A DNA stretch of 64,000 nt from positions 14,457,831 to 14,521,830 of the forward strand of contig JAUZTB010000048.1 in NCBI GenBank assembly GCA_034780895.1, in the 5' to 3' direction. This stretch comes from Rhynchobatus australiae (Eukaryota). A program made the position numbers. This document shows positions 33,001-36,000 of the stretch, piece after piece (position 1 is the first letter of the stretch; every line of letters begins with the position of its first letter).

Positions 33001-36000
33001 CTTTCATCCACTGAGAGTCTCCAGCCAATTTATTCTGAGGAGGATAGCAAATTCAAACGGGGAAACACAGAACAAACACTCAGGGAGCAATCTTATTTAC
33101 TGATTCAGATATTTCAGTCCAAACAGATCCAAGTCACACCCATCAAACTTTCTAAAATTAAGACTAACTGAGTAGTTTAAAGGAGCAAACTTGGTGGCAT
33201 ACAAAAGGAGTTAAGGGTGGAATCAAATCAAAAGGAAAGGTATGCAATGTTGTAAAGATGTGTGGCAGGCCTGAAAATTGGAAACTTTTTTTTATATACG
33301 CAAAAGGACAACTTAGAAATGGAGATAATAAATTTGAGAATAAACTAACAAGAAATTAAAATGAACAGGAAGTGCTTCTACAACTAAAGGCCTAGATAGA
33401 GTGGATATAGAGAGGTTGCTTCCCATAGTAGGAGAGTCTAGGATCCAAGGGCACAGCCTCAGAATAAAGGGATGTCCCTTTGAAACTGATAATGAGGAGT
33501 TTCTTCAGCCAGAGGGTGTTGAACCTGTGGAATTCATTGCCACAGAGGGCTGTGGAGGCCAAGTCATTGGGTGTATTTAAGGCAGAAACTTGTAGGTTTT
33601 TGATTAATAAAAGGGTTAAGAGTTACAGAAGGTGGGAGAATGGGGTTGAAAAAAAATCAGTCACAATTGAATGGGGGAACAGATTCAATGGGATGAATGG
33701 TCTAATTCTGCTCCTATATCTTATGGTCTTAAATAACAAGATGAAACTGGGGGAATTAACAATGGAAAATAAGAAAATGGCAGAGACTTTGAGCAAATGC
33801 TTTGTACTTAATTACATGGTATAATACAGAAAAAATATTCCAACAACAGTAGAAACCTTTCCTAAGAGGAAGGGAGGAACATAAAGCAATCAGTACAGCA
33901 AGGGAAAAGCTGCGAGATAAACTAATGCAACAAAAGATGGCTTGCATCCAAGGGTCTGAAAATAGGATGCTGCAGAGACAGTGGGTGTATTAAACCTAAA
34001 TTTCCAAAGCTCCATTGATTCTGGAAAGGTCCCAGCTGATTGGAAAACCACAAATCTATTGCCCCTATTCAAGAAAGGAATGAGACACATCTGGAAAAAA
34101 AACAGGCTAATTAGCCTAATATCTGTCATTGGGAAAATCCTGGAATCCATCAGCAAATGAAACAGAAAATGCTGGTAGGATTCAGCAGGCAGCATCTGTG
34201 GAAAGAGAAACTGGGTTAAGGTTTCAGGTCAAAGATCCTTCACCAGGACTGCTTCAAATCACATTTATTTTAATGCAAGGCGTACCACTCGTACAGTCGA
34301 TGAATGCAAAGGTTTAATTAACACAGGGGTCTACAATATTGTTGCCATCACTGAGACATTGTTGAAGGACGGGCAAGAATGGCAACACAATATCTCAAGC
34401 TATAGAATTTCCAGGCGAGATGGAGGGGGGAGTAAAAGGGGAGGGGGTACTGCTGAAAAATGAGATGGAGTTTAATCCAGACAAATATGAGGTGATGTAT
34501 TTTGGGAGGACTAATGAGGCTAGGACATACACCACGAATGGAGTACAAAGAGACTTTGGAGTACAAGTCCATATATTCTTAAAGGCAGCAGCACAGGTAG
34601 ATAACAGGATTCCAAAGTAATATGGGATACTGGTCTTCACTAGTCAGGGCATCAAATACAGAAGTAGGAAGGTTATGTCCCAACTTTATAAAAACTTGGT
34701 CAGACCTCAGCTGGAGTACTGCATGCAGTTCTGGGCACCACGCTATAGGAAGGATGTGATAGTGCTGGGGAGGGTGCAGAGGAGGTTCACCAGGACGTTG
34801 GAGACATAAGCACCTGCAGATGCTAGAATCCAGAGCAACAAACAATCTGCTGGAGGAACTCAGTGGGTGGAGCAGCATCTGGGACTGATGCAGGGTTTCA
34901 GCCCAAAATGTTGACAATTCCTTTCCTCTCGCAGATGCTCCTCCACCCGAGTTCCTCCAGCAGATTGTTTGTTGCTTCACCAAGATGTTGCCTGTGATGG
35001 AGCAGTTCAGTCATGAGGAGATACAAGAGAAGCTAGGTCTGTTCTCCCTAGAGCAGAGGAGGTAGTAAGAGGGCATGATTGAGGTATAGAAAAATAAGGG
35101 GTATCGATAGGGTAGAGTGCAGGAAACCTTTCCCCATATCATAGATAGATAGAACTAGAGGAGACAGATTTAGGCTAACAGGGGAGAGATTTTGAGGTGA
35201 TCTTTTGCACTCAACAGAGTGGCAAGTACCTGGAATGTACCACCTAGAACTGTGTCGCTGACCACATTTAGAGAATACAAAGATGAGCACTTGAATTACC
35301 CAGGTTTAGAAGGCTATGGACCACGTGCTGGGAGATGGGAATAATACAGAAGGATCCCCACTGGTCAGTGTGGACAAGTTGGGTCAAAAGTCCTGTTTCT
35401 ATGCTGTATGATTCTATGACTGGAATGTGAGAAAACAAGTTACTTTTCAATGGGGAAAGTAGCAGCAAGACATTCAGGGAGAGTTAACGAAATCTTTTGA
35501 AAGGGATTTATTACTGTTCTTTTGAGGATCTGACGAGTAGGTGAATCAGGTCCATAACCTTCTAATCCTTTGGTAAGGAGGCATTGCCTTAAGGTTGATC
35601 AATGGATCTTTGTGTACAATGCTATGCTTCTGGCTGGCAGCATGTCAGAATCCATGAGGAAGGGCACCATTACCTTCATCTACAAGCAGTAGTGGGAGAG
35701 GGAGGGCATCAGAAATTGGAAACGCATCTCACTGTTGAATGTGGATTATAAGATCCTATCCAAGGCCATCGCCAACAGGGTCAAGTTTGCTCTAGGACAG
35801 GTGATCCACCTGGATCAAACCTGTGCTGTAGCTGGCAGGAAGATCTTTGACAGCCTTGCGCTGCTCAGGGATATGATCGCCTTTGTGCAGGACAGAGGGG
35901 TGGACACCTGCCTGGTCAGCTTGGACCAGGAGAAGGCCTTCGACAGGATATCACACACGTNNNNNNNNNNNNNNNNNNNNNNNNNNNNNNNNNNNNNNNN

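What the first reader, a model, noticed from the sequence alone, without database searches (positions are those of the whole stretch)
34786..34990. 176-bp palindromic non-autonomous element with a hammerhead-like loop and a 15-bp TSD
Seen: two roughly 45-nt PLE-terminus arms in inverted orientation (28 bp perfect) enclose 'ctgatgcagggtttcagcccaaaatgttgac' (34885-34915), a degenerate hammerhead core. The insert splits a CR1 reading frame and is flanked by a 13/15-identical duplication. Inference: it looks like a MITE, but the long TSD and PLE homology suggest a retrotransposed, SINE-like or retrozyme-like parasite of Penelope RT. Its RNA would fold into a long hairpin. It could be a poorly described class of non-autonomous element.
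Basis: partly seen in the sequence, partly recalled or inferred. Interest (0 to 1): 0.72.

Follow-up and report, generated by a model that had tools for sequence, protein, structure and literature searches.

The report
Double-primed stub of a Penelope-like retroelement
The small hairpin-shaped insert is most likely an ordinary, aborted insertion of a Penelope-like retrotransposon, copied inward from both cut DNA strands, and not a new class of mobile element.

Summary
A 175-bp insert (34801-34975) splits a LINE reverse-transcriptase reading frame. It is flanked by a true 15-bp target-site duplication (13/15) and folds into a long hairpin (z about -10 to -11). Its loop carries a hammerhead-like box.

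The insert consists of two 5'-truncated copies of one repeat terminus, placed head to head with their 3' ends pointing outward. A 33-nt extension sits at one end only. Penelope-like element (PLE) papers describe exactly this: an inverted 5'-truncated copy, an optional 30-40-bp "tail" at one end, and a TSD around the whole. A lizard PLE protein cuts and extends both DNA strands in vitro, starting reverse transcription at two adjacent internal sites.

The window holds six more loci of the same repeat. One is a roughly 1-kb insertion with the same inverted ends. The hammerhead here is a remnant: no helix I, two core substitutions, no Rfam match. It is neither tandem nor a retrozyme, and not a MITE.

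Not shown: protein-level PLE identity in this window, homology of the tail, and genome-wide copy number, since no eukaryotic genome collection was on hand.

Verdict: a further instance of a known kind. Interest is low to moderate.

The parts
34786..34800 (.). Left copy of the 15-bp target-site duplication; it is host LINE sequence.
   Evidence: (D1): the paralogues carry the 15-mer once. One search gives the chance estimate.
34801..34833 (-). 33-nt extension at one end only, outside the palindrome. I read it as the optional PLE 'tail', the outermost 3' part of the left copy (sense on the minus strand).
   Evidence: The 30-40-bp tail at one end is described. There is no other copy in the window. 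Homology to the other PLE-like terminus is not significant when the tail is tested alone (276 of 2000 shuffles reach the score).
34834..34884 (-). Left 5'-truncated copy of the repeat terminus (sense on the minus strand). It forms the left arm of the hairpin.
   Evidence: Local alignment to copy F scores 65, reached by 0 of 500 shuffles. nhmmer hit 34885-34834 minus, E 2.6e-12; this row was used to build the profile.
34885..34975 (+). Right 5'-truncated copy (sense on the plus strand). It starts at the first base of the CTGATG box and ends at the tail-less terminus.
   Evidence: (against the 31870-31700 terminus: score 36, reached by 0 of 500 shuffles), and 53 (a profile-building row).
34885..34912 (+). 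Remnant of a minimal (PLE-type) hammerhead. The core has 2 substitutions, helix II is kept, and the 5' strand of helix I is absent.
   Evidence: There is no Rfam hammerhead match.
34976..34990 (.). Right copy of the 15-bp target-site duplication.
34621..35065 (+). Host: C-terminal reading frame of a decayed non-LTR (LINE) reverse transcriptase, interrupted by the insert. The label 'CR1' is untested.
   Evidence: ORFs 34621-34809 and 34889-35065. Searches show the paralogues. RVT_1 is found next to one paralogue at 25099-25404 minus.
31729..32724 (-). Larger insertion of the same repeat family. A minus-strand body (copy A) carries a hammerhead-like box near 31850-31825. A head-to-head inverted 5'-truncated partner (copy E) sits on the plus strand at about 32639-32724. 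Candidate AT-rich TSD: AATAAA at 31723-31728 and 32725-32730. The stretch contains the N run 32391-32490, which was left as it is.
   Evidence: (I1: arms 31771-31812 and 32660-32701, 42 nt, 79%; D7).
29345..29445 (-). Copy F: a single, non-palindromic copy ending at the same tail-less terminus.
34155..34252 (-). Copy B: a single copy with a hammerhead-like box (1 core mismatch), about 550 bp upstream in the same LINE.
44399..44497 (+). Copy H: a single copy found by the profile and not used to build it.
   Evidence: (44406-44495, E 1e-12).
53851..53972 (-). Copy C: a single copy with a hammerhead-like box (2 core mismatches).

Best explanation
The 175-bp insert is one dead-on-arrival integration event of a Penelope-like element (PLE). 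It is not a separate kind of element.

Inferred steps:
1. The PLE endonuclease nicked the two strands of the target 15 bp apart.
2. Each freed 3' end primed reverse transcription of the same terminal part of PLE RNA.
3. The top-strand cDNA began at the outer start site, so it carries the 33-nt tail (34801). It ran 84 nt.
4. The bottom-strand cDNA began at the inner start site, so it has no tail (34975). It ran 91 nt, into the hammerhead box.
5. The two short cDNAs were joined head to head at 34884|34885.
6. Filling the 15-nt overhangs gave the TSD.

The hairpin is therefore a by-product of priming twice at one fixed RNA site. The hammerhead-like loop is a piece of pseudo-LTR ribozyme caught in only one of the two copies.

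Shown here: the anatomy, the TSD, the shared terminus, and relatives in the window. Inferred: the PLE attribution, the order of events and the enzymology, by analogy with published PLE work.
For: 1. Geometry. The left part is antisense and the right part is sense relative to the hammerhead strand. Both 3' termini abut the TSD and the 5' truncation points meet in the middle. Priming from both nicked strands predicts exactly this.

2. Same source. The two arms are nearly identical (45 matches, 2 mismatches, one 3-nt indel). They are closer to each other than to copy F, as expected if both came from one RNA. The TSD has decayed to a similar degree (13/15).

3. One-sided extension. A 33-nt extension is present at one end only. 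A 31-bp or 30-40-bp optional tail on one of the inverted ends is reported as characteristic of PLEs (Arkhipova 2013, passages; Craig 2021, passages).

4. Mechanism in print. A purified lizard PLE protein cleaves and extends both strands. Reverse transcription starts at two adjacent internal RNA sites whose spacing corresponds to the tail (Frangieh 2024, main text parts 1-2).

5. Fixed terminus. By my reading of the alignment, five termini stop at the same homologous point without a tail: the right half of the insert and copies B, E, F and H.

6. Variable 5' ends. They range from inside helix II to more than 800 nt upstream, as in 5'-truncating retroelements.

7. An analogue in the window. A roughly 1-kb insertion of the same family has the same head-to-head inverted ends and a different TSD length of 6-7 bp.

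8. Hammerhead features. The box shows the features listed for PLE minimal hammerheads: no helix III, a bulged base after position 9, and a G10.1-C11.1 pair (descriptor). Such a site occurs once in the window and 0 times in 12 shuffles.

9. Snap-back is excluded. Self-priming would duplicate the sequence next to the junction. Here the duplicated parts are the outer ends and the loop is unique.
Against: 1. No protein evidence for a PLE was obtained in this window. The endonuclease-like frame at 32114-32578 (minus) is a likeness I recall, not a match. Pfam at E up to 10 gave nothing. The word-indexed search of longer proteins gave nothing. The Atlas gave nothing. The full HMMER search gave 1 hit at E up to 0.001, a bacterial LRR/Ig-repeat protein that I judge spurious. 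Pfam on 123 ORFs of 70 aa or more found only LINE-type RVT_1 and zf-RVT.

2. The tail has no second copy in the window. Its likeness to the end of copy A is not significant (276 of 2000 shuffles). On a second look, copy A more likely has an internal duplication than a tail (D6).

3. Rfam finds no hammerhead in three of the boxes tested. Every box in the window is degenerate, and relaxed descriptor hits are frequent by chance.

4. The 15-bp TSD is longer than the 8-10 bp given for rotifer PLEs. The target is not AT-rich, whereas the lizard enzyme prefers AT-rich sites.

5. The mechanism rests on one in vitro system from a distant host.

6. Copy number and junction sharing outside the 64-kb window could not be examined.
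Confidence: 0.72

Rival explanations
1. A dedicated, amplifying non-autonomous family. The hairpin unit itself would be transcribed and copied in trans by PLE reverse transcriptase, a SINE-like parasite.
For: Pseudo-LTR sequence alone can suffice for PLE-mediated integration in trans (Arkhipova 2013, passage). Non-autonomous PLE derivatives exist (Li et al. 2026, abstract and Results; Craig 2021, passage on Chlamys). The repeat is dense, at 7 loci in 64 kb. Most copies are only about 100-130 nt long, with 5' ends near the hammerhead box.
Against: None of the 6 other loci in the window shares the junction or the 175-bp layout. The one other inverted pair has a different junction and an 847-nt spacer. 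There is no Pol III-type head. The internal junction cuts the hammerhead at its first core base, which looks like an accident of truncation and not a designed boundary.
Confidence: 0.12
2. A simple 5'-truncated PLE fragment inserted first, and a later fold-back or template-switch duplication during DNA replication created the inverted arm.
For: Inverted duplications do arise by replication errors. Another inverted duplication of this repeat, in tail-to-tail orientation, lies at 44303-44440 and 44751-44612.
Against: The TSD brackets the whole composite, and each arm ends exactly at a repeat terminus next to a TSD copy. A later duplication would have to stop precisely at the old insert boundary. 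The arms and the TSD show similar decay.
Confidence: 0.06
3. A retrozyme: a hammerhead-bearing unit that spreads through self-cleaved circular RNA.
For: It has a hammerhead-like box and a highly self-paired RNA. Vertebrate non-LTR retrozymes are related to PLE pseudo-LTRs.
Against: Retrozymes are head-to-tail tandem repeats with canonical type I hammerheads (Cervera & de la Pena 2020, passages). Here there is one box with no helix I and two core substitutions. No tandem copy is present. The cDNA runs 27 nt past the predicted cleavage site, so the template had not been cut there.
Confidence: 0.03
4. A MITE moved by a DNA transposase, or two independent nested insertions, or an assembly artefact.
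For: It has terminal inverted repeats and is short. The assembly has many gaps (17 N runs).
Against: The inverted repeat does not reach the left end, where 33 nt are unpaired. The TSD is 15 bp here and 6-7 bp at the related insertion. The same terminus occurs in single, non-palindromic copies. One TSD encloses both halves. The arms differ by 2 substitutions and a 3-nt indel, and the structure is asymmetric, which does not fit a read-level palindrome artefact.
Confidence: 0.04

Closest known systems
Endonuclease-bearing Penelope-like element insertions with an inverted pseudo-LTR and a 'tail' (Arkhipova et al. 2013, Mob DNA, PMC3846280; Craig et al. 2021, MBE, PMC8557442)
   Same: Both have head-to-head inverted 5'-truncated copies with 3' ends pointing outward. 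Both have an optional extension of about 31-40 bp on one end only. A TSD encloses the whole, and a minimal hammerhead lies in the pseudo-LTR.
   Different: Here both copies are extremely short (84 and 91 nt) and there is no ORF between them, so the result looks like a MITE. The TSD is 15 bp, against the 8-10 bp quoted for rotifer copies. PLE identity rests on architecture and the ribozyme motif, not on a detected RT or GIY-YIG protein.
Poseidon element of Anolis carolinensis (PAc) in vitro (Frangieh et al. 2024, Mob DNA, PMC11167929)
   Same: Both strands are cut and extended. Reverse transcription starts at two adjacent internal sites, which define the tail. The unprocessed, uncleaved RNA serves as template.
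   Different: That work is biochemistry on a lizard element with an AT-rich target preference. This is a genomic fossil in another host with a target that is not AT-rich. The joining of the two cDNAs has not been shown in either case.
Non-LTR retrozymes of animals (Cervera & de la Pena 2020, NAR, PMC7229834; Li, Clavereau & Pollet 2026, bioRxiv)
   Same: Both are non-coding, related to PLE pseudo-LTRs, carry a hammerhead and give strongly self-paired RNA.
   Different: Retrozymes are tandem, carry canonical type I ribozymes and give circular RNA. This insert is a single inverted pair with a truncated minimal ribozyme.
Twin priming of human L1 (the L1 inversion mechanism; recalled, no paper read here)
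   Same: The second nicked strand also primes cDNA synthesis, which gives an inverted 5' part inside one TSD.
   Different: As I recall it, L1 twin priming inverts a different, upstream part of the RNA, so no palindrome results. Here both primings hit the same terminal site, so the ends are inverted repeats.

Membership tests
Penelope-like element insertion (EN+ PLE) | An inverted 5'-truncated copy lies adjacent, head to head, with 3' ends pointing outward. | tested here: met
   The feature is described.
Penelope-like element insertion (EN+ PLE) | An optional 30-40-bp tail is present at one end only and derives from element sequence between two reverse-transcription start sites. | tested here: inconclusive
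   Length (33 nt) and one-sided position are met. Derivation from element sequence is not shown: there is no second copy in the window and the alignment of the tail alone is not significant.
Penelope-like element insertion (EN+ PLE) | A short TSD of variable length surrounds the whole composite. | tested here: met
   The TSD is 15 bp here. A candidate of 6-7 bp flanks the related insertion.
Penelope-like element insertion (EN+ PLE) | The pseudo-LTR holds a minimal hammerhead: no helix III, a bulged base after A9, a G10.1-C11.1 pair, a long helix II and a short helix I. | tested here: inconclusive
   This copy has the bulge, the G-C pair and a 4-bp helix II, but 2 core mismatches and no helix I. 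Copies A, B and C carry related boxes that are also degenerate. Strict hits number 1 against 0 in 12 shuffles. Rfam gives no match, but I do not expect its models to describe this minimal form; that is an inference.
Penelope-like element insertion (EN+ PLE) | Autonomous relatives encode a telomerase-like RT plus a GIY-YIG endonuclease. | tested here: inconclusive
   No such protein was detected in the window. The only candidate frame is short, broken and interrupted by an N run. Full-length relatives elsewhere in the genome could not be searched.
Non-LTR retrozyme | Head-to-tail tandem repeats of a 150-450-bp monomer. | tested here: not met
   There is no tandem copy. The two copies are inverted.
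Non-LTR retrozyme | A canonical type I hammerhead with helices I-III and loop-loop contacts. | tested here: not met
Non-LTR retrozyme | Expression as small circular RNA. | not testable with these tools
   No RNA data are on hand.
MITE (non-autonomous DNA transposon) | Terminal inverted repeats reach both ends, and the TSD has the fixed short length of a transposase family. | tested here: not met
   33 nt at the left end are unpaired. The TSD is 15 bp here against 6-7 bp at the related insertion. The same terminus occurs in non-palindromic single copies.
SINE | A Pol III-type head derived from tRNA, 5S or 7SL, plus a LINE-derived or A-rich tail. | tested here: not met
   ARAGORN finds nothing in 34500-35300. 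Rfam at E up to 10 gives only weak miRNA-hairpin matches. There is no A-rich tail.

The most novel reading that the evidence does not exclude
The hairpin may not be a one-off stub. It could be a member of an amplifying family of hairpin-shaped, PLE-dependent elements. Its two outward-facing reverse-transcription entry sites would let a dimeric PLE enzyme prime on both target strands. That would be a retro-mobilised analogue of a MITE.
Probability: 0.1. Interest if true: 0.6.

Novelty: new member of a known kind. Interest (0 to 1): 0.27.

Why it matters
As an annotation matter it is ordinary. It is one more decayed fragment of an abundant repeat, and it warns that very short PLE insertions can pass for MITEs or for microRNA-like hairpins. 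One search lists several weak miRNA-model matches caused only by the long stem.

It has a modest wider use. How PLEs integrate is still described as unresolved. An insert this short records both primer sites, both start sites (33 nt apart), the junction and the TSD within 205 bp. It also favours priming from both strands over snap-back self-priming. A genome-wide census of such mini-insertions could test the in vitro model in vivo, using the spread of junction positions, whether the tail is ever on both ends, and the TSD lengths.

Tried and rejected
- Rfam. The whole window at gathering score gave 0 matches. The regions 34700-35080, 31650-31950 and 34100-34320 at E up to 10 gave no hammerhead, only weak chance-level matches.
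- Protein identity of the PLE-like body at 31729-32724. Pfam on 123 ORFs and on three pieces at E up to 10 gave nothing PLE-like. The search of longer proteins gave no hit and the Atlas gave no usable hit. The full HMMER search gave 1 hit, P0002, a bacterial LRR/Ig-repeat protein matched on a low-complexity stretch, which I rejected as spurious.
- Literature search for the arm as a letter string found 0 papers. My first literature search was badly worded and returned shark ecology papers.
- Search for a second copy of the 33-nt tail. Only two short chance matches turned up, at 46096-46112 and 58742-58755, and reading their context ruled them out.
- My first reading that copy A carries a tail was withdrawn. 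An internal direct repeat (D6) and the multiple alignment fit an internal duplication better.
- Homology upstream of the hammerhead box between copy A and copies B, C, F and H was not above shuffles.
- Snap-back self-priming, a MITE, a retrozyme, nested insertions and an assembly artefact were all considered and rejected, as set out under the rival explanations.
- The supplement of Cervera & de la Pena 2014 is a PDF and could not be read. They may list the cartilaginous-fish retrozyme families and could bear on the rival 'family' reading.
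Full report
WHAT IS THERE

The stretch 34786-34990 consists of a 175-bp insert (34801-34975) between two copies of a 15-mer, at 34786-34800 and 34976-34990, identical at 13 of 15 positions. The insert interrupts the C-terminal reading frame of a decayed LINE reverse transcriptase.

Three other copies of that LINE in the window run through the same place without interruption and carry the 15-mer once. Both flank copies align to those same 15 columns. This is therefore a real target-site duplication and not a chance repeat. 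Only 2 of 200000 random window positions show 13/15 or better at the same spacing. I did not test whether the LINE is a CR1 in the strict sense.

The insert is a long but imperfect and asymmetric palindrome. Positions 34834-34884 pair with 34926-34975, with 45 matches, 2 mismatches and one 3-nt indel. The first 33 nt (34801-34833) have no partner. About 45 nt in the middle are unique. Either strand folds far better than shuffled sequence, at -93.4 and -100.6 kcal/mol, z -10.4 and -11.1.

RELATIVES IN THE WINDOW

No eukaryotic genome collection was available, so the window was the only place to look for relatives.
- A self-BLAST and motif scans first found one relative, a single non-palindromic copy at 29345-29445.
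- A structural descriptor for minimal hammerheads, written from the text of Cervera & de la Pena 2014, turned up related boxes at 34218-34246 and 53939-53966. Reading the sequence added 31850-31825 and a partial box near 32640.
- A profile built from these seven rows recovered all of them, as it must. It also found one new copy at 44406-44495, E 1e-12.

That makes seven loci in 64 kb. By my reading of the alignment, five termini stop at the same homologous point: the right half of the insert and the copies at 34153, 32724, 29345 and 44497. The 5' ends differ, from inside the ribozyme's helix II to more than 800 nt upstream. A fixed 3' end with ragged 5' ends is the signature of target-primed reverse transcription.

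One of the loci, about 31729-32724, is a larger version of the finding. A minus-strand body meets, head to head, a short plus-strand copy of its own terminus. The arms are 31771-31812 and 32660-32701, 42 nt, 79% complementary, with 847 nt between them. The whole sits between two AATAAA hexamers.

HOW THE INSERT IS BUILT

Set against these relatives, the insert resolves into two copies of the same terminal segment.
- The right copy (34885-34975, sense on the plus strand) starts at the first core base of the hammerhead box and ends at the common terminus.
- The left copy (34884-34801, sense on the minus strand) starts 17 nt or so downstream of the box. It runs through the common terminus and continues for 33 more nt.

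The 3' ends point outward and touch the TSD, and the truncated 5' ends meet at 34884|34885. The duplicated parts are the outer ends, not the sequence at the junction. This excludes snap-back self-priming of one cDNA.

WHAT IS KNOWN

Three papers describe this pattern.
- Arkhipova et al. 2013 (passages) describe as 'the typical Penelope structure' an element whose upstream pseudo-LTR is joined by an inverted pseudo-LTR. The whole is flanked by a TSD of 8-10 bp. [quoted passage not shown] Head-to-head is the most frequent arrangement.
- Craig et al. 2021 (passages) repeat this for further clades. Insertions are highly 5'-truncated, often with an inverted 5'-truncated copy. A 30-40-bp tail is often present at one end only.
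- Frangieh et al. 2024 (abstract and main text) purified a lizard PLE protein and found three things. It cleaves and extends both target strands. Reverse transcription starts at two adjacent sites inside the RNA, and the sequence between them is the tail. Uncleaved RNA is the main template.

The insert at 34801-34975 matches this picture point for point: two outward-facing termini, one with a 33-nt tail and one without, a staggered-cut TSD, and a cDNA that runs 27 nt beyond the predicted ribozyme cleavage site.

THE HAMMERHEAD

The box at 34885-34912 has several features that Cervera & de la Pena list for PLE minimal hammerheads: no helix III, an extra base between positions 9 and 10.1, and a G10.1-C11.1 pair. 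Its helix II is only 4 bp, shorter than the long helix II they describe.

It also has C for A9 and A for G12. The five bases before it, which should form helix I, belong to the inverted copy and do not pair contiguously: 2 scattered pairs of 5.

Copy E keeps GACCCGAAAC where copies A, B and C read GACCTGAAA and the insert reads GCCCAAAA. These differences sit at a CpG, so decay by deamination is a reasonable inference.

Relaxed descriptor hits are frequent, 25 in the window against about 13 in shuffles. With the PLE-specific extras the insert is the only hit, and 12 shuffles gave none. Rfam reports no hammerhead in the three regions tested and nothing at gathering score in the whole window. 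I do not weigh this heavily, because I do not expect the Rfam models to describe the form without helix III; that is an inference. In this copy the ribozyme is a truncated, mutated remnant.

WHAT IS NOT SHOWN

- The link to PLEs rests on architecture and on the ribozyme motif. I recognised, from memory, a GIY-YIG-like pattern in the broken frame at 32114-32578 (minus). No tool confirmed it. The single HMMER hit is a bacterial repeat protein that I reject.
- The tail has no second copy in the window and no significant likeness to the other termini. Its identity as element sequence is inferred from its length and place.
- I recall that similar repeat sequence is abundant in cartilaginous-fish genomes. 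This was not tested, and I did not try to identify the source.
- The TSD is longer, and the target less AT-rich, than in the published cases.
- Copy number outside the window is unknown. The remaining collections hold prokaryotes, phages, plasmids or E. coli, and I did not use them.

RIVAL READINGS

- An amplifying hairpin family cannot be excluded without the genome. Nothing in the window supports it: none of the six other loci shares the junction.
- A later fold-back duplication would have to end exactly at the old insert boundary.
- A retrozyme needs tandem units and a canonical ribozyme, and neither is present.
- A MITE is excluded by the unpaired 33 nt, the long and variable TSD, and the single-copy relatives.
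- There is no tRNA-like head.
- An assembly artefact is unlikely, given the asymmetry and the differences between the arms.

VERDICT

Its most interesting claim, a poorly described class, is not supported. The best reading is a dead-on-arrival PLE insertion made by priming on both target strands. It is a further instance of a known kind, with some value as a compact natural record of how these elements integrate.

Nothing in the window led me to take it for human. All N runs were left as they are.

Noticed in passing
window 32372-32390 and 32491-32509: The 100-base N run 32391-32490 is flanked by identical 19-mers (D1). This suggests overlapping contig ends at an assembly gap. It was left unfilled and unbridged.
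   Followed up: no
window 31729-32724: A roughly 1-kb insertion of the same repeat family has head-to-head inverted termini and a candidate 6-7-bp AT-rich TSD. Its minus-strand frame at 32114-32578 looks endonuclease-like to me from memory, but no tool confirmed this.
   Followed up: partly
window 44303-44440 and 44612-44751: Copy H of the repeat lies inside a larger inverted duplication of about 140 nt per arm (local alignment score 124). The two 3' ends face each other, tail to tail, which is the opposite of the finding.
   Followed up: partly
window 34155-34252: Another copy of the repeat (copy B) sits about 550 bp upstream in the same LINE. By my reading of the frames, the LINE reading frame jumps there from an early to a late part of the reverse transcriptase, so insertion and an internal deletion seem to coincide.
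   Followed up: no
window copies A-H (see parts): A conserved block about 45 nt before the common terminus holds an ATG in 6 of 8 copies. The frame stays open to the terminus in 5 of those 6, and through the tail in the left half of the insert. This fits the report that a PLE pseudo-LTR includes the first codons of the ORF, but it is weak evidence.
   Followed up: partly
window 59480-60388 (minus): A long open frame of 303 aa has C2H2 zinc-finger matches, including ZNF142-type models. It is probably a host gene exon.
   Followed up: no
window 35693-36368 (plus) and 25099-25404 (minus): LINE remnants with RVT_1 and zf-RVT matches lie here. The first lies about 700 bp downstream of the finding and is interrupted by an N run.
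   Followed up: no
window 34848-34961: Several microRNA covariance models give weak matches (E 0.03 to 9) solely because of the long stem. This shows how such stubs could be mistaken for miRNA precursors.
   Followed up: no
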